This document shows, piece after piece, positions 1 through 3,218 of a stretch of 24,940 bases of DNA. This DNA is from a virus. Both the position numbers and the translations under genes were made by a program. Within the stretch, counting starts at the first letter, position 1. The number at the start of each line of letters is the position of its first letter. Below the pieces are notes generated by a model. That model saw only the letters and a list, made by a program, of their open reading frames with translations, made no database searches and was not told the origin of the DNA. The stretch covers positions 1-24,940 of the IMG/VR virus record IMGVR_UViG_3300045988_097034. One strand, 5' to 3'.

Positions 1-28
1 TTTGGTGCGCCAACAGGGACTCGAACCC
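1..28. repeat. attL core, direct-repeat copy 1 (identity verifiable for 28 bp only because the right copy is cut by the window edge)
   Basis: tttggtgcgccaacagggactcgaaccc is identical at 1-28 and 24913-24940. Confidence 0.85.
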
Positions 29-47
29 CGGACCGACCGGTTATGAG
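3..47 (-). tRNA. Truncated 3' portion of a tRNA with CAU anticodon (Met or Ile2-lysidine type); non-functional remnant at attL
   Basis: Reverse complement of 3-47 reads CTCATAA-CCGGT-CGGTC-CGGGG-TTCGAGT-CCCTG-TTGGCGC-A-CCA. These are the anticodon loop, 3' anticodon stem, variable loop, T-arm, acceptor 3' strand, discriminator and CCA. Beyond 47 there is no matching 5' anticodon stem or D-arm. Confidence 0.8.
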
Positions 48-126
48 TAAACCAACAAAACACTGAAAAACTTAGTATTTATCGGGATTTTCTGAAATTA
101 CTGCAATGCACGCAATTTTATAGTGC

Positions 127-1335
127 TTATGCTTGCTTTTGGGCAGGTTTAAACTCCTTAATCAATGCGTCAATACTGATTATTTTATTCGATTTGCGTT
201 TTGGCAATGATTCGACATAGTGCGTATAAATGTCAAGCGTAGTTGACGGCTTAGCGTGTCCCATTTGTTTTTGCACATAGTGGAGTTCGTGACCTGTATA
301 TAACAAATTGGTGGCACAGGTGTGGCGGAGCGAATGAGCTGTAAACCTATCAATTACAAACGGCACTCCTTTAGGATCGTACTTACTTTTTGGCTGTCTT
401 TCATACTCCAAAAAGTCGCCGTATTTGATATTTAGGTCAGCCATATAACTATTCCAGAGCCTTCGCCACGCTGTATCACTCATCAGAGTACCTTTTGCGG
501 AGGTTACAACAAAATCGTCAAGTTTATGTTCAGGCTGTTTCTTTAAAAAATCAATAAGTATTTTTGGCACATCTGTAACAGTACGCACTCCCGATATGGT
601 TTTTGCACCTTGCTCAATATGCACTTTACCTTTTGTTATTAGCTTTTGATGAACGCTAATTGTACGCTTATCAAGGTTTATATCTCGCCATTGCAAGGCA
701 AGGCATTCGCCAAGTCGCAAGCCTGCAAACATCATTATCATAGCTGGCAATTGTGCACGGTGTTTGGTGGATACAACCCACAGCTGTTCTTGTGCAGTCA
801 ATGCTCGCCGTTCTGAGGTTTTTGCGTCCTTCGGTATGTCAATGTATTGTGCAGGCGAATAATCAATTATGCGGTTTTCGATTGCATAGTTAAACACCTG
901 CCTTGCCACACCCCTCCATTCTCTTAATGTTTTCTTTGCGGTTGGCTTCCCGGTGTGAGAATTACAAGCGTACTCATCGAGGATAATTTGTTGAAAATCA
1001 GCCTTTACAAGTTTATTGATTGGTCGGTCACTAAGAACAGCAAAATGCTTCAGATAATTTACATAGTTCTTGTATTGTCGCTCTGAAAGCATTGTTTTTT
1101 TGTAGGCAAGCCATAAGTTAACGAGTTTCCCCCATTTCATTCCTGAGTTTAGCACATCCATACCCTTGCCGATTTGTAACTTGATAAGCTGTGCCTTTTC
1201 TTCAACCTCTTTGACAGAGTAACCGTTGACGGTTTTGTATTTGCGTTTGCCGTCCTCGTCTTTGCCAAGATATACAGACTTTTGATAGCGTCCGTCTGCA
1301 CGCTTTTTAAGTTTTGCTTTTGCCATAATATACAC
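127..1335 (-). CDS. int: Tyrosine recombinase / phage integrase
   Basis: 402 aa. Shows box I GLRLGE, HSLRHTCAT (HxxR) and GHAKPSTTLDIYTHY (catalytic Tyr region). RBS is AAGGAG. Lies adjacent to attL. Confidence 0.95.
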   Translation of the reverse strand: MYIMAKAKLKKRADGRYQKSVYLGKDEDGKRKYKTVNGYSVKEVEEKAQLIKLQIGKGMDVLNSGMKWGKLVNLWLAYKKTMLSERQYKNYVNYLKHFAVLSDRPINKLVKADFQQIILDEYACNSHTGKPTAKKTLREWRGVARQVFNYAIENRIIDYSPAQYIDIPKDAKTSERRALTAQEQLWVVSTKHRAQLPAMIMMFAGLRLGECLALQWRDINLDKRTISVHQKLITKGKVHIEQGAKTISGVRTVTDVPKILIDFLKKQPEHKLDDFVVTSAKGTLMSDTAWRRLWNSYMADLNIKYGDFLEYERQPKSKYDPKGVPFVIDRFTAHSLRHTCATNLLYTGHELHYVQKQMGHAKPSTTLDIYTHYVESLPKRKSNKIISIDALIKEFKPAQKQA

Positions 1336-1359
1336 TCCTTTTGCTTAAAAAAAGGGTGC

Positions 1360-1399
1360 AAAAATCCCCTGATATTCAAAACTTGAAAAATTCAGGGGA
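1360..1399 (-). terminator. Intrinsic-terminator-like hairpin between the 1495..2046 gene and int
   Basis: Stem 1365-1372/1392-1399 (TCCCCTGA/TCAGGGGA) plus inner TTCAA/TTGAA pairing. On the minus strand it is followed by UUUUU (1364-1360) and a further U7 run, only about 25 nt before the int ATG. Confidence 0.5.
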
Positions 1400-1411
1400 G
1401 TGTGATACAAT
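1383..1411 (+). promoter_or_regulatory. Near-consensus sigma-A type promoter on the plus strand in a region where all genes are minus-strand
   Basis: TTGAAA (1383-1388), 17-nt spacer, TACAAT (1406-1411), with a TGn extension (TGA 1403-1405). Confidence 0.5.
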
Positions 1412-1417
1412 ATTATT

Positions 1418-1500
1418 GCTTTTAGTAGTATCACTGCACCCTGTGTGTGGTGGTTTCCGCTCTGACTTGCTCCAACAGGACAGGGCGGATTTTTTTATTT
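1418..1500 (+). ncRNA. Candidate small RNA of about 80 nt (promoter plus intrinsic terminator, no ORF), convergent with the 3' end of the 1495..2046 gene
   Basis: Predicted TSS about G1418 downstream of the 1383-1411 promoter. Terminator stem 1456-1464/1481-1489 (TCCGCTCTG/CAGGGCGGA, one G-U) is followed by T7 (1490-1496). No ATG or RBS inside. Confidence 0.35.
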
Positions 1501-2046
1501 CTTATTTTCTATAGTTAAAGTAAGTCTTGCGTAATATATCTTTTCTTTTGTCTTTTCATCTTCAAAAGAAGAAATATACAAATCTTTGATTGCCTTGACT
1601 CTGTTCTGATTTTCTTTGATAAATAAGGTATCTTCTGAATGCAAAGAACCAATATCAAGACCATTCGCAATAACTTTAATTGCAGGCTGATTTTCATATT
1701 CGTACTCTTGAAGTTCAACATTGATTACTTTACCGCTGAGCTTTTGTTGCATAAGTTTAGCGAGATGTTCTTGCCTATTATCATATGTAACACCTGCAAT
1801 TTTAAATTTTTTGGAATGTGTACCTTTGGTTGTAGGTGTGTTTTGTGAGGCGTTTGATTGTATGTCTGCACTATTTTCTTTTGTTGGCAATTTCTTGTCA
1901 AGGATAATAAGCACTATGCCTGCTGCTAAAAACAACAAACAAGCAAACCCAGTTGATACAACACCTTGAGCAAATGCGGCAATTGCTCCAACAATACCAA
2001 GTATCAATAATACAATGCCTACAATGAATTTTTTACTTTTATTCAA
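1495..2046 (-). CDS. Membrane-anchored protein: two N-terminal TM helices plus a C-terminal HIRAN-like domain (lysogeny-module accessory gene)
   Basis: 183 aa with a TTG start 7 nt after GGAGG. Hydrophobic segments FIVGIVLLILGIVGAIAAF and GFACLLFLAAGIVLIIL. C-terminal KIAGVTYDNRQ...VELQEYEYENQPAIKVIANGLDIGSL resembles the bacterial HIRAN pattern (vaGvtf.nRq ... ep.N.yD.nAI.V ... iGyl). Confidence 0.6.
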   Translation of the reverse strand: MNKSKKFIVGIVLLILGIVGAIAAFAQGVVSTGFACLLFLAAGIVLIILDKKLPTKENSADIQSNASQNTPTTKGTHSKKFKIAGVTYDNRQEHLAKLMQQKLSGKVINVELQEYEYENQPAIKVIANGLDIGSLHSEDTLFIKENQNRVKAIKDLYISSFEDEKTKEKIYYARLTLTIENKK

Positions 2047-2060
2047 AATATTTCCTCCTC

Positions 2061-2124
2061 ATATGTGATATATATATTGACAAAATATATCACATATTAT
2101 AAAATAATGTTAGAGGGGTTTCAA
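2061..2124. promoter_or_regulatory. Back-to-back overlapping promoters plus a 13-bp perfect inverted repeat (candidate operator)
   Basis: Minus strand: TTGAAA (2124..2119), 17 nt, TATAAT (2101..2096), driving the 1495..2046 gene. Plus strand: TTGACA (2077-2082), 17 nt, TAAAAT (2100-2105). Inverted repeat ATATGTGATATAT (2061-2073) / ATATATCACATAT (2085-2097) brackets the plus -35. Confidence 0.55.
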
Positions 2125-2182
2125 CTTCTCACTATTCCTATTTTTCCTACCATAGTTGCCGCTATGGTAGGTTTTTCTTTTT
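2112..2182 (+). ncRNA. Candidate small RNA of about 70 nt, antisense to the 3' end of the ImmA-like gene
   Basis: TSS predicted about 2112 from the TTGACA-17-TAAAAT promoter. It ends at the 2146-2182 terminator. The only ORF (26 codons) starts upstream of the predicted TSS and has no RBS. Confidence 0.3.
2146..2182 (+). terminator. Plus-strand intrinsic terminator overlapping the stop codon of the minus-strand ImmA-like gene
   Basis: Perfect 10-bp stem CCTACCATAG (2146-2155) / CTATGGTAGG (2162-2171), 6-nt loop, then TTTTTCTTTTT. On the minus strand no U-tract follows the hairpin. Confidence 0.6.
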
Positions 2183-2725
2183 GTTGATAAAATCTGCAAA
2201 TTGCTCTTTCACCTGTCTTTCAAGGGGATGCAGATAAAAAGCGTTTCTGCGTTCGAGCTCTGCCATTCGTTCAGCCCTGTAGGTTGCCGCCTCAAGGCTG
2301 ATGTCGCATAAATTTGCAATTGCAGCGGCATTGATTGCTTGCATTTCGTGCAACACACAAGCCGGAGCTAACAAGTCCCGAGCAAATACATTTGCCGAAT
2401 GTTCGGCATCGTCGGTTATTGCAAAACCTTTACCATTTTTAGCAAACAGATGCCCTAAAAAGATATGCCCGAGTTCGTGGGCAATTGTAAATCTACAACG
2501 CTGAGGAGATTGCTCATCAGCATAGACGATGTACAGCTTATCATCTTGCATCAAAGTTATTCCGCTCTCGTTTTGGTGTAGCAGATTGACCGCTGAATTT
2601 TTCAGCAAAGTAATATCAGCTTGTTTAGCTATTCGGCTTACCTTAACAGGTAGGCTATCTATATTATAATCAATCAAACATTGCCAAGAGGCATTGCGTG
2701 CATTTTTATATTGTCCATAATTCAA
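2162..2725 (-). CDS. ImmA/IrrE-family zinc metallopeptidase (anti-repressor protease partner of the XRE repressor)
   Basis: 187 aa with a HEXXH motif in FTIAHELGHIFLGH. TTG start 6 nt after GAGGTGG. Lies immediately downstream of the XRE repressor, as in ImmR/ImmA modules. Confidence 0.85.
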   Translation of the reverse strand: MNYGQYKNARNASWQCLIDYNIDSLPVKVSRIAKQADITLLKNSAVNLLHQNESGITLMQDDKLYIVYADEQSPQRCRFTIAHELGHIFLGHLFAKNGKGFAITDDAEHSANVFARDLLAPACVLHEMQAINAAAIANLCDISLEAATYRAERMAELERRNAFYLHPLERQVKEQFADFINKKKNLP

Positions 2726-2780: not shown

Positions 2781-3218
2781 TTATAAGTCTGTATCGTCAG
2801 GCTCAAACTTGCTAAGATTAGCTAAGTTTACTATTTCAATTGGTTGATTATTGCCGTCACTTCGTGCGGCTTTAACCGTTGGTATCAATACTTCATCTTC
2901 CACACCGAGCAATCTATCAACTGCAGGTTGCATTTCGACTTTATTACGATATGCAAGTATAACCTTTTTCTCGTGATTCGAAAGTTTATCTATATGTATT
3001 TGTTCTTTGATTTCGCCATTTACCAAAGCGTTTATATCAATAGATAAAAAATTACATATTTTGGTGACATTTTGGATGGATGTTCCCCAAATGCCCCTAC
3101 TAAAAATTCCTTTAACGGTTGTATAAGGCAAATCAACTAATTTTGCAAATTGCATCACGCTTTTATATTTATCTAAAATATAATCTTGCAATTTTTGCTC
3201 AATAGTCATTGCACTCAC
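2781..3218 (-). CDS. XRE-family HTH phage repressor (CI/ImmR-like)
   Basis: 145 aa. N-terminal HTH (QFAKLVDLPYTTVKGIFSRG...). Divergent from a Cro-like gene. RBS is GAGAGGTGAG. Confidence 0.85.
   Translation of the reverse strand: MSAMTIEQKLQDYILDKYKSVMQFAKLVDLPYTTVKGIFSRGIWGTSIQNVTKICNFLSIDINALVNGEIKEQIHIDKLSNHEKKVILAYRNKVEMQPAVDRLLGVEDEVLIPTVKAARSDGNNQPIEIVNLANLSKFEPDDTDL

What the first reader, a model, noticed from the sequence alone, without database searches (positions are those of the whole stretch)
1495..2046. Membrane-anchored HIRAN-like protein in the lysogeny module with its own near-consensus promoter
The 183-aa protein combines two N-terminal TM helices with a C-terminal segment matching the bacterial HIRAN pattern (KIAGVTYDNRQ ... 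NQPAIKVIANGLDIGSL). Positive charges (KSKK, DKK) lie on the predicted cytoplasmic side. HIRAN domains are known from HLTF to recognise 3' DNA ends. The gene sits between int and the ImmA/repressor operon. It has its own TTGAAA-17-TATAAT promoter and a downstream terminator, so it is probably expressed in the lysogen independently of int. A DNA-end-binding domain tethered to the inner face of the membrane would be well placed to intercept incoming linear phage DNA, giving superinfection exclusion or defence. To my knowledge that mechanism has not been described for HIRAN proteins.
Basis: partly seen in the sequence, partly recalled or inferred. Interest (0 to 1): 0.7.

Follow-up and report, generated by a model that had tools for sequence, protein, structure and literature searches.

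The report
Membrane-tethered HIRAN-like prophage cargo protein
This prophage gene makes a small protein, anchored to the inner face of the cell membrane, whose soluble part is a distant and altered relative of the DNA-end-binding HIRAN domain; it occupies a swap-in slot next to the integrase that in related phages holds defence and toxin genes, so it is probably a lysogen-expressed protection factor, but similar proteins have already been noticed.

Summary
The ORF (1495-2046, minus strand, 183 aa) is real. It has a GGAGG ribosome-binding site, two N-terminal TM helices, a disordered linker and a confidently folded 110-aa cytoplasmic domain (pLDDT 95). The domain misses Pfam HIRAN, as do 83 relatives, and Foldseek and PDB sequence searches find no HIRAN. 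Profile-profile comparison with 13 Pfam-verified HIRAN domains gives 94% probability (score 47; controls 10-32), strongest against Firmicute phage HIRANs. The HIRAN motif NPxDxNA, whose Asp binds the 3'-OH, is replaced by YEGEPA. I read it as a divergent HIRAN-like domain with an altered pocket. About 78% of 116 relatives carry some membrane device, always compatible with a cytoplasmic domain. The gene always lies between the repressor (with or without ImmA) and int. In 109 related phage contigs the slot holds this family (~22%) or Fic, TIR, NYN, zeta, MazF-like and T5orf172 genes. Two conserved RNA-structure elements bracket it. Canonical HIRAN proteins, including the TM-bearing ThaL, occupy the same position in streptococcal and staphylococcal prophages. 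ThaL is named in a 2025 paper, so the architecture is not new. A defence or exclusion role is plausible but untested; DNA 3'-end binding is doubtful.

The parts
1495..2046 (-). CDS, 183 aa: membrane-tethered HIRAN-like protein (TTG start at 2044-2046, stop at 1495-1497)
   Evidence: 10 close homologues at 73-96% identity; 84 distant homologues
1897..2028 (-). TM hairpin: TM1 residues ~7-27 (1966-2028) and TM2 residues ~30-50 (1897-1959). Flanked by MNKSKK and DKK, so N-in/C-in.
1825..1896 (-). Low-complexity, disordered linker, residues 51-74 (pLDDT <50)
   Evidence: variable and indel-rich in alignment A1
1498..1824 (-). Cytoplasmic domain, residues 75-183, order b1-a1-b2-b3-b4-a2-b5-b6. Divergent HIRAN-like. 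Conserved G85 V86 T87 F/Y88, R91 Q92, Y115 x Y117 x G/N119 x P121 A122, N128, G133.
   Evidence: AF2 pLDDT 95.1; hhalign 94% to HIRAN; conservation
2054..2060 (-). Ribosome-binding site GAGGAGG, 7 nt before the start codon
   Evidence: conserved in relatives
2096..2124 (-). Sense promoter-like site TTGAAA-17-TATAAT. The -10 region is conserved in relatives; the -35 is not.
2061..2097 (.). Perfect 13-bp inverted repeat ATATGTGATATAT-N11-ATATATCACATAT. It spans the sense transcription start region and the -35 of the divergent promoter. Candidate operator.
   Evidence: palindromic character kept with variation in relatives
2077..2181 (+). Left boundary element of the cargo slot. Divergent promoter TTGACA-17-TAAAAT (2077-2105), hairpin 1 (2113-2130), terminator hairpin (2146-2171) and T-run. 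Candidate ~70-nt small RNA.
   Evidence: z = -4.5; 7 pairs with compensatory changes; hairpin 1 rich in G.U on this strand only; 39 of 100 related loci, always same orientation upstream of int
1347..1488 (-). Right boundary element, the int leader. P1 hairpin (1457-1488), linker, then a three-way junction closed by GGGUGCA/UGCACCC (1354-1441) and followed by U7 (1347-1353), directly before the int ribosome-binding site. Acts as a terminator or attenuator between this gene and int.
   Evidence: its 20-mer is in >=119 viral contigs
1383..1500 (+). Candidate antisense RNA to the int leader and the gene's 3' UTR. Promoter TTGAAA-17-TGnTACAAT (1383-1411). Terminator is P1 read on the + strand, followed by a T-run (to ~1500).
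   Evidence: promoter hexamers conserved in 14 loci; a conserved C.A mismatch in sense becomes U.G on the + strand
127..1326 (-). Tyrosine integrase (context)
   Evidence: Phage_integrase, 2e-21
2162..2725 (-). ImmA-like M78 metalloprotease (context)
   Evidence: Peptidase_M78, 3e-10
2781..3218 (-). Putative repressor (context): only sub-threshold HTH matches; assigned from position and orientation

Best explanation
The gene encodes a small inner-membrane protein. An N-in/C-in TM hairpin holds a compact 110-aa domain against the cytoplasmic face of the membrane.

The domain belongs to an unannotated family that is a remote, divergent branch of the HIRAN superfamily. It is closest to the HIRAN domains of Firmicute phages. 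The b1 'VAGVTF..RQ' motif and the b3-b4-helix core are kept, but the 3'-OH-binding NPxDxNA loop is replaced by a conserved Y-E-Y-E-G-E-P-A loop.

The gene is one of many interchangeable cargo genes in a fixed slot of the lysogeny module of a group of gut Clostridia (Ruminococcaceae-type) prophages. The slot lies downstream of the repressor (with or without ImmA, LytTR or S24 partners) and upstream of int. It is bracketed by two conserved RNA-structure elements.

The gene is probably transcribed in the lysogen, either by read-through from the repressor operon or from its own promoter, and is insulated from int by a terminator-like leader.

Most likely function (inferred, not shown): a prophage-encoded protection factor, either superinfection exclusion or defence. 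It would act at the inner face of the membrane by binding either incoming nucleic acid or a protein of the DNA-entry route.

Shown here: gene, topology, fold confidence, remote HIRAN relationship, loss of the Asp pocket, conserved slot and its cargo spectrum. Inferred: expression in lysogens, protective function, ligand.
For: Gene and architecture.

Remote HIRAN homology:
- hhalign of A3 against 13 Pfam-verified HIRANs gives 94% probability and score 47. Controls: 12-13 for reversed alignments, 9.6 +/- 1.9 for column shuffles, at most 31.6 for block shuffles.
- Against Firmicute phage HIRANs alone the probability is 89%. Against Bacillus phage G gp253 alone it is 91% over 62 columns that include b1.
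- The family HMM hits 7 of 13 canonical HIRANs at E<0.01.

Cytoplasmic membrane association is conserved through different devices. Of 116 relatives, 62 have TM segments (N- or C-terminal), 20 have an N-terminal 'MGLLSKLFKK'-type amphipathic motif and 9 have basic-aromatic C-terminal tails.

Position: the gene lies between repressor and integrase in every close (>=73% identical) locus and in three of five more distant family loci examined, with Tyr or Ser recombinases and with ImmA, LytTR or S24 partners.

Cargo slot: about 22% of 109 contigs carrying the int leader hold this family. The rest hold Fic/DOC, NYN, CAP12-type TIR, ThsB-like TIR, DUF4041-T5orf172, zeta toxin, PemK/MazF-like, TM2 and Zn-ribbon membrane proteins.

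Bracketing elements.

Precedents:
- Canonical HIRAN proteins occupy the same position in Streptococcus and Staphylococcus prophages.
- Sie2009-type membrane proteins and Ltp are lysogeny-module genes that block DNA injection (PMC7693887, PMC3952083).
- In P0007 loci the next gene carries an Ltp domain.
Against: No experiment bears on function, and PADLOC has no match.

HIRAN membership is weak:
- Nothing in Pfam.
- No HIRAN among Foldseek PDB matches, despite a pLDDT-95 model and five HLTF HIRAN entries being in the PDB sequence set.
- Similarity to HLTF alone is only 7% probability.
- The 3'-OH-binding Asp and one stacking Tyr are not conserved.
- The replacing loop is acidic and the family's median pI is 5.6. 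This does not favour DNA binding.

Guilt by position is indirect. The slot also holds non-defence genes, or none at all.

The sense promoter's -35 is not conserved.
Confidence: 0.45

Rival explanations
1. The domain is not functionally HIRAN-like. It is a protein- or ligand-binding module whose resemblance to HIRAN is only ancestral or coincidental. The protein would then do something unrelated to DNA ends, such as modulating a host membrane protein or envelope process for the benefit of the lysogen (lysogenic conversion).
For: No Pfam, PDB or Foldseek HIRAN match. The D94/Y93 pocket is lost and replaced by an acidic loop, and the family is mostly acidic. Membrane localisation is the most conserved feature.
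Against: hhalign is well above controls and colinear over the whole domain. The shared 'VAGV(T/S)(F/W)..RQ' motif also occurs in the Pfam-verified HIRAN gp253 of Bacillus phage G. Canonical HIRANs occupy the same prophage position.
Confidence: 0.2
2. It regulates the prophage's own life cycle rather than excluding other elements. One possibility is coupling a membrane or DNA signal to repressor/ImmA activity. Another is modulating integrase expression or excision.
For: It always sits next to the repressor (with or without ImmA) and int. It is flanked by conserved candidate regulatory RNAs and a palindrome over its promoter.
Against: The flanking RNA elements and the int leader are equally present with unrelated cargo, so they belong to the slot and not to this gene. 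About 78% of related phages lack the gene, so it is dispensable for the switch. Partners vary (ImmA, LytTR, S24, none).
Confidence: 0.12
3. It blocks natural transformation or other ssDNA uptake. This would protect the prophage from 'chromosomal curing', by binding ssDNA as it emerges from the uptake channel at the membrane.
For: The domain faces the cytoplasm at the membrane. HIRAN ancestry implies DNA-end binding. The paper that names thaL concerns prophage-transformation conflict (PMC12637031).
Against: That paper only names thaL once and reports no function for it. The 3'-OH pocket is not conserved here. Competence of the Ruminococcaceae-type hosts was not examined here.
Confidence: 0.08
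4. It is a membrane-acting toxin or abortive-infection effector kept in check by the flanking antisense RNAs, in the manner of a type I toxin-antitoxin system.
For: It is a membrane protein. A candidate convergent antisense RNA overlaps its 3' UTR. Toxins (zeta, MazF-like, Fic) are alternative cargo in the same slot.
Against: At 183 aa with a folded soluble domain it is unlike type I toxins. Many relatives lack TM helices altogether. The antisense RNA candidates occur with any cargo and do not overlap the coding sequence.
Confidence: 0.07

Closest known systems
[quoted passage not shown] IPP45_00002, SpyM3_1144, Javan240_0002, phiSa2 UYE95984)
   Same: Same genomic position: downstream of the repressor, upstream of int, same strand. 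IPP45/ThaL also has a TM hairpin followed by a C-terminal cytoplasmic domain. A helical insertion sits between b1 and b2 at the same place. There is remote profile similarity (62-66% to single sequences, 89% to the Firmicute set). Function is unknown in both.
   Different: Those proteins score 40-50 bits on Pfam HIRAN and keep the N-P-x-D-x-N-A motif. The window protein does not reach Pfam and has Y-E-N-Q-P-A (family Y-E-G-E-P-A) instead. BLAST finds no similarity outside the TM region.
HLTF/Rad5 HIRAN domain (PF08797; PDB 4S0N, 4XZF, 5BNH, 2MZN)
   Same: Six strands and two helices. The b1 Gly-x-x-aromatic and the b3 'A-I-K-V' / b4 'I/V-G' core align.
   Different: D94 (3'-OH contact) and Y93 (base stacking) are not conserved. 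There is an extra helix between b1 and b2 and no C-terminal helix. Foldseek and HMM searches do not connect the two. hhalign to HLTF alone gives 7%. HLTF's domain is soluble and nuclear, and is fused to a SNF2 motor.
Sie2009-type superinfection-exclusion proteins, the two-component SieF7/2AB system, and Ltp of lactic-acid-bacteria prophages
   Same: [quoted passage not shown] SieF7/2AB pairs a membrane protein with a metalloprotease-like protein; here ImmA is the neighbour. Source: PMC7693887 and PMC3952083.
   Different: No sequence relationship was found (no informative PHROG match). Ltp acts outside the membrane, whereas this domain is cytoplasmic. Exclusion activity is untested here.

Membership tests
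HIRAN domain (Pfam PF08797) | Scores above the Pfam gathering threshold (24.7 bits) | tested here: not met
   No HIRAN hit for the protein at E<=1; among its 83 relatives HIRAN is not in the families listed at E<=10. Positive controls score 40-91 bits.
HIRAN domain (Pfam PF08797) | Profile-profile homology to verified HIRAN domains | tested here: met
   hhalign gives 94% probability, E = 1.4e-7, score 47; controls score 10-32. It gives 89-91% against Firmicute phage HIRANs but only 31% against proteobacterial phage HIRANs plus HLTF.
HIRAN domain (Pfam PF08797) | HIRAN fold (six-stranded barrel flanked by two helices) recognisable by structure comparison | tested here: inconclusive
   The AF2 model (pLDDT 95) has 6 strands and 2 helices in a colinear order. 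Foldseek against the PDB lists no HIRAN in the top 50 and nothing below E = 0.06.
HIRAN domain (Pfam PF08797) | N-P-x-D-x-N-A loop, with the Asp contacting the 3'-OH and Tyr residues stacking on the terminal bases (HLTF D94, Y72, Y93) | tested here: not met
   The D94 equivalent is G 34/43, N 5/43 (N119 in the window protein), D 4/43. The Y93 equivalent is E/N/K. Only the Y72-equivalent aromatic (F/Y88) is kept.
HIRAN domain (Pfam PF08797) | Binds 3' ends of DNA | not testable with these tools
   Needs EMSA or fluorescence anisotropy with the purified domain.
ThaL-type lysogeny-associated TM-HIRAN proteins | Transmembrane segment(s) plus a domain on the cytoplasmic side | tested here: met
   ThaL/IPP45 has the same layout
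ThaL-type lysogeny-associated TM-HIRAN proteins | Encoded in the lysogeny module between repressor and integrase | tested here: met
ThaL-type lysogeny-associated TM-HIRAN proteins | Canonical (Pfam-level) HIRAN domain or detectable sequence similarity to ThaL | tested here: not met
   BLAST finds only the TM region at E = 0.19. hhalign to ThaL alone gives 62%.
Sie2009-type superinfection exclusion | [quoted passage not shown] | tested here: met
   definition from PMC7693887
Sie2009-type superinfection exclusion | Blocks DNA injection by superinfecting phages | not testable with these tools
   Needs plating-efficiency and DNA-entry assays.
Type I toxin-antitoxin | Small (<~60 aa) hydrophobic toxin whose mRNA is overlapped by an antisense RNA | tested here: not met
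   183 aa with a folded soluble domain. The candidate antisense RNAs flank but do not overlap the coding sequence, and they occur with unrelated cargo.

The most novel reading that the evidence does not exclude
A family of cytoplasmic HIRAN-derived domains is always delivered to the inner leaflet, by TM hairpins, tail anchors or amphipathic helices. It would capture the leading end of DNA entering the cell (phage genome or transforming ssDNA) at the exit of the entry channel, through a remodelled pocket (Y-x-Y-x-G-x-P-A plus R-Q). That would be a new, cytoplasm-side mechanism of superinfection exclusion, carried as swappable cargo in a prophage slot bounded by two conserved regulatory RNAs.
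Probability: 0.15. Interest if true: 0.75.

Novelty: new variant of a known kind. Interest (0 to 1): 0.45.

Why it matters
If the protective role holds, this would be a common and so far unannotated exclusion or defence gene of human-gut and rumen Clostridia prophages. It is the largest single occupant, about 22%, of a well-defined cargo slot. It would also give a first functional handle on the lysogeny-module HIRAN proteins (ThaL class), for which I found a name but no reported function.

The conserved membrane targeting by four unrelated devices is a clear and testable clue to where it acts.

Independently of this gene, the slot itself looks useful. It is bracketed by a conserved small-RNA-like terminator unit and a structured int leader with its own antisense promoter. 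It could serve as a marker for mining new defence cargo, and as a candidate RNA-based control of integrase expression.

Tried and rejected
- Pfam, PHROGs and PADLOC on the protein gave nothing informative.
- Pfam on 83 relatives at E<=10 listed no HIRAN.
- PDB sequence searches with the protein, A2 and A3 found no HIRAN.
- Foldseek against the PDB, with the full-length and the domain-only model, gave only noise.
- Foldseek against BFVD found five phage proteins of the same fold, none called HIRAN.
- An iterative search with the family profile gave 38 hits, none with a Pfam domain, so there was no bridge to HIRAN.
- HLTF HIRAN as a query in the big protein collection returned only vertebrate exon fragments, useless for a profile. 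The HIRAN reference set was built instead from annotated phage genomes found by tblastn.
- megablast and tblastn of the window against GenBank phages found no match.
- ARAGORN found no intact tRNA.
- Rfam had no family for the flanking RNA elements.
- Type I toxin-antitoxin reading: rejected (see rivals).
- The idea that the upstream small-RNA unit is specific to this gene: rejected, since 23 of 39 model hits are in loci with other cargo.
- My first attempt to identify the upstream ORFs picked spurious short ORFs inside the leader; I redid it.
Full report
**What is in the sequence**

The ORF at 1495..2046 on the minus strand encodes 183 aa. It starts at a TTG that lies 7 nt downstream of GAGGAGG; relatives have ATG at the same aligned position.

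The window is a complete small siphovirus-type prophage:
- integrase (127..1326 -);
- this gene;
- ImmA/M78 protease (2162..2725 -);
- a putative HTH repressor (2781..3218 -; only sub-threshold HTH matches, assigned from position);
- a divergent cro-like gene;
- ParB_N and replication genes;
- terminase, portal, ClpP-type protease, capsid, tail genes and an amidase.

The first ~50 bases of the window look like the 3' part of a tRNA, which would be the attachment site. ARAGORN calls no complete tRNA.

**Architecture of the protein**

AF2 on the full protein gives two helices (residues 5-27 and 30-50), a disordered linker (51-71, pLDDT below 50) and a folded C-terminal domain.

With 83 diverse relatives as the alignment, the domain alone folds at pLDDT 95.1 and pTM 0.85. 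The order is b1-a1-b2-b3-b4-a2-b5-b6.

The N-terminus (MNKSKK) and the residues after TM2 (DKK) are basic and the inter-helix loop is short. The predicted topology is therefore N-in/C-in, which puts the domain in the cytoplasm.

**Is the domain HIRAN?**

*By standard tests, no.*
- Pfam HIRAN is not hit by the protein at E<=1. Among its 83 relatives it is not in the families listed at E<=0.01 or E<=10.
- PDB sequence searches with the protein or with family profiles do not find the HLTF HIRAN entries. Those entries are in the PDB sequence set.
- Foldseek with either model finds nothing better than E = 0.06 in the PDB, and no HIRAN in the lists shown.

*By profile-profile comparison, yes, remotely.*
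- I built a reference alignment (A4) from human HLTF HIRAN plus 12 phage proteins found by tblastn in annotated phage genomes. All 13 score on Pfam HIRAN.
- hhalign of the family alignment A3 (43 domains) against A4 gives 94% probability, E = 1.4e-7 and score 47. The confident core is 40 columns (b2 end, loop, b3, b4, a2). At low stringency the alignment is colinear over the whole domain and includes b1.
- Controls scored 12-13 for reversed alignments, 9.6 +/- 1.9 (maximum 15.7) for column shuffles, and 17 +/- 4.5 (maximum 31.6) for 8-column block shuffles.
- The signal comes mainly from Firmicute phage HIRANs. It is 89% for that subset, 91% over 62 columns for Bacillus phage G gp253 alone, and 62-66% for ThaL and phiSa2 alone. 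It is only 31% for the proteobacterial phage set plus HLTF, and 7% for HLTF alone.

*The functional motif is not kept.* In HLTF, D94 contacts the 3'-OH and Y72/Y93 clamp the last two bases (PMC5773155). In the aligned family columns:
- the Y72 equivalent stays aromatic (F 34, Y 8 of 43);
- the Y93 equivalent is E/N/K;
- the D94 equivalent is G in 34, N in 5 (including this protein, N119) and D in 4 of 43;
- canonical N-P-x-D-x-N-A becomes Y-E-G-E-P-A.

The family has its own near-invariant residues: G85, V86, T87, R91, Q92, L95, Y115, Y117, P121, A122, V125, N128 and G133. Net charge varies; the median pI is 5.6, and 9.0 for this protein.

My reading is a divergent HIRAN-superfamily domain with a remodelled pocket. 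It is not a Pfam HIRAN member, and there is no sequence support for 3'-OH recognition.

**Membrane association is the conserved theme**

Exhaustive phmmer found 84 relatives of the domain at 50% clustering. Among the 116 family proteins collected:
- 62 have TM segments, mostly an N-terminal hairpin with basic flanks and some with C-terminal anchors after an N-terminal domain with no hydrophobic N-terminal segment;
- 20 TM-less proteins start with a conserved amphipathic motif (MGLLSKLFKK, MGIFDFLKK, MGILDVFKK and similar);
- 9 end in basic-aromatic tails (for example KKKKWQFWK, KGFLNKYFKI);
- most of the rest are fragments or have very basic tails.

All these devices are compatible with a cytoplasmic domain held at the inner leaflet.

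**Genomic context**

In every close relative (>=73% identity) and in three of the five more distant family loci examined, the gene sits on the repressor strand, directly upstream of the recombinase. The backbones otherwise differ:
- an S24/LexA-type repressor, followed in one group by a Zn-ribbon plus Ltp-domain gene;
- an HTH-only repressor with a serine recombinase;
- ImmA;
- a LytTR-type protein.

One distant member is a lone opposite-strand gene in a phage early region, and for another no recombinase was seen on the short stretch held.

In two loci the gene starts 12 nt after the S24-family gene it follows (a full HTH-S24 repressor in L020), which implies co-transcription with it. Another group has its own TTGACT-17-TATAAT promoter.

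**The slot and its boundaries**

*Downstream boundary.* The intergenic region between this gene and int is conserved across 14 distinct loci. It consists of a hairpin right after the stop codon, a linker, and a three-way junction closed by GGGUGCA/UGCACCC and followed by U5-7, directly before the int ribosome-binding site.
- Seven pairs show compensatory changes.
- The G.U pairs indicate that the sense strand folds.
- The window sequence folds with z = -5.7.
- A conserved antisense promoter (TTGNAA-17-TGnTACAAT) lies inside the junction. The first hairpin is better formed, and followed by a T-run, on the antisense strand. This suggests an ~85-nt antisense RNA.

*Upstream boundary.* Upstream of the gene is a second conserved unit on the opposite strand. 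It has a promoter (TTGACA-17-TAAAAT), a G.U-rich hairpin and a terminator hairpin with seven covarying pairs and a T-run.

*Both elements belong to the slot, not to this gene.*
- A 20-mer of the int leader occurs in at least 119 IMG/VR contigs.
- It is followed by an ORF of at least 300 aa in 76 of 80 loci, and that ORF resembles the window integrase in 59 of 80.
- Of 109 contigs with enough upstream sequence, 23-25 carry a member of this family ending 124-143 nt before the motif.
- The others carry Zn-ribbon/TM/PsbP-like proteins, Fic/DOC, NYN, a CAP12/Pycsar-type TIR, a ThsB-like TIR, DUF4041-T5orf172, zeta toxin, PemK/MazF-like or TM2 proteins, or just the repressor or ImmA.
- A covariance model of the upstream unit finds it in 39 of 100 of these loci. 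It is always upstream of the int leader and in the same orientation. The gap equals the cargo size: 0.56-0.72 kb for this family and 1.1-3.6 kb for others. Twenty-three of the 39 loci carry other cargo.

The gene is therefore one interchangeable cargo in a defence- and toxin-rich hotspot.

**The promoter and terminator claims**

TTGAAA-17-TATAAT is present. The scan finds 17 such sites in 4 kb against 12.6 expected, so the match alone is not significant. The -35 is TCTGAA or TAACGA in 90-96% identical relatives, while the -10 region is kept. It overlaps, -10 to -10, the better-conserved divergent promoter. A perfect 13-bp inverted repeat covers the start region.

Expression in the lysogen is plausible, by read-through or from the gene's own promoter, but it is unproven. 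Insulation from int by the leader terminator is supported.

**Comparison with what is known**

Canonical HIRAN proteins occupy the same position, between repressor and int, in Streptococcus and Staphylococcus prophages. The pneumococcal IPP45 protein has a basic N-terminus, a TM hairpin and a C-terminal HIRAN domain.

Pneumococcal prophage records already annotate a 'Phage HIRAN domain protein'. [quoted passage not shown] The architecture is therefore known. What is new is a divergent, unannotated family with an altered pocket.

By function and position, the nearest characterised analogues are Sie2009-type membrane proteins, the two-component SieF7/2AB system (membrane protein plus metalloprotease-like protein) and Ltp. 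All are lysogeny-module genes that block DNA entry (PMC7693887, PMC3952083).

**Verdict**

Its specific mechanism, 3'-end capture, lacks support from the conserved residues, and its novelty claim is overstated.

I rate it a new variant of a known kind, interest 0.45. The most novel reading not excluded is cytoplasm-side capture of entering DNA by a remodelled HIRAN pocket, at a probability of about 0.15.

Noticed in passing
window 2077-2181 (+): Candidate ~70-nt small RNA transcribed divergently from the gene. It has a TTGACA-17-TAAAAT promoter, a G.U-rich hairpin (2113-2130) and a terminator hairpin (2146-2171) with 7 covarying pairs plus a T-run. It overlaps the ImmA stop codon in antisense. 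A covariance model finds it in 39 of 100 related phage loci, always at the upstream edge of the cargo slot. No Rfam family matches.
   Followed up: yes
window 1347-1488 (-), and 1383-1500 (+): Conserved structured leader in front of int: a hairpin, then a three-way junction closed by GGGUGCA/UGCACCC, then U7, directly before the int ribosome-binding site. A conserved antisense promoter (TTGNAA-17-TGnTACAAT) lies inside it, with an antisense-strand terminator. This may be an antisense-RNA-controlled attenuator of integrase expression. Its 20-mer is in at least 119 IMG/VR contigs, including loci with serine recombinases.
   Followed up: partly
window 2061-2097: Perfect 13-bp inverted repeat ATATGTGATATAT-N11-ATATATCACATAT over the two overlapping divergent promoters. 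Relatives keep a palindrome there with a different sequence (L018: TTGACA-N5-TGTCAA). Candidate operator; the binding protein is unknown.
   Followed up: no
L057-L175 (IMG/VR loci), slot between the two RNA elements: The slot upstream of int is a cargo hotspot. Besides the HIRAN-like family (~22%) it holds Fic/DOC-wHTH, NYN, CAP12/Pycsar TIR, ThsB-like TIR, DUF4041-T5orf172, zeta toxin, PemK/MazF-like, Zn-ribbon-TM2 and Zn-ribbon-TM-PsbP-like genes, plus several proteins with no Pfam match.
   Followed up: yes
proteins P0013, P0014, P0016, P0026, P0037, P0040, P0043, P0046, P0050, P0068, P0070, P0096-P0100: TM-less family members share an N-terminal motif MG[LIF][LF]x[KLF][LF][FK]KK (for example MGLLSKLFKK). 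To my recollection it looks like an amphipathic membrane-binding helix of the PspA/Vipp1 type. Others end in MinD-like basic-aromatic tails.
   Followed up: partly
L013-L016 6596-7687 (+): In the P0007 group, a 363-aa Zn-ribbon (DZR) protein with a Lipoprotein_Ltp domain lies between the HIRAN-like gene and int. Ltp is the superinfection-exclusion domain of phage TP-J34. That makes two putative exclusion genes in tandem.
   Followed up: no
BFVD hits A0A8S5T8B4, A0A8S5P580, A0A8S5T5A9: Gut-phage proteins of 390-454 aa, labelled 'ATP dependent helicase', 'DNA polymerase III subunit alpha' and 'DUF4236', contain a domain with the same predicted fold (probability 1.0, TM 0.52-0.59). This hints that the domain also occurs fused to other modules. 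Their sequences were not retrievable here.
   Followed up: no
window 1-60: The window begins with what looks like the 3' part of a tRNA gene on the minus strand (TGGTGCGCCAACAGGGACTCGAACCC...). This fits an attachment site next to int. ARAGORN calls no complete tRNA.
   Followed up: no
P0024 (2351 aa): A giant protein gives 7-11 partial matches to residues 43-80 of the domain (E = 5e-11 overall). It is probably a repeat-driven or spurious similarity and was excluded from the alignments.
   Followed up: no
L025-L027 and L030, gene upstream of the HIRAN-like gene: In these prophages the position held by ImmA in the window is taken by a 234-aa Response_reg(weak)/LytTR protein downstream of an HTH repressor. 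This is an unusual partner for a phage repressor.
   Followed up: no
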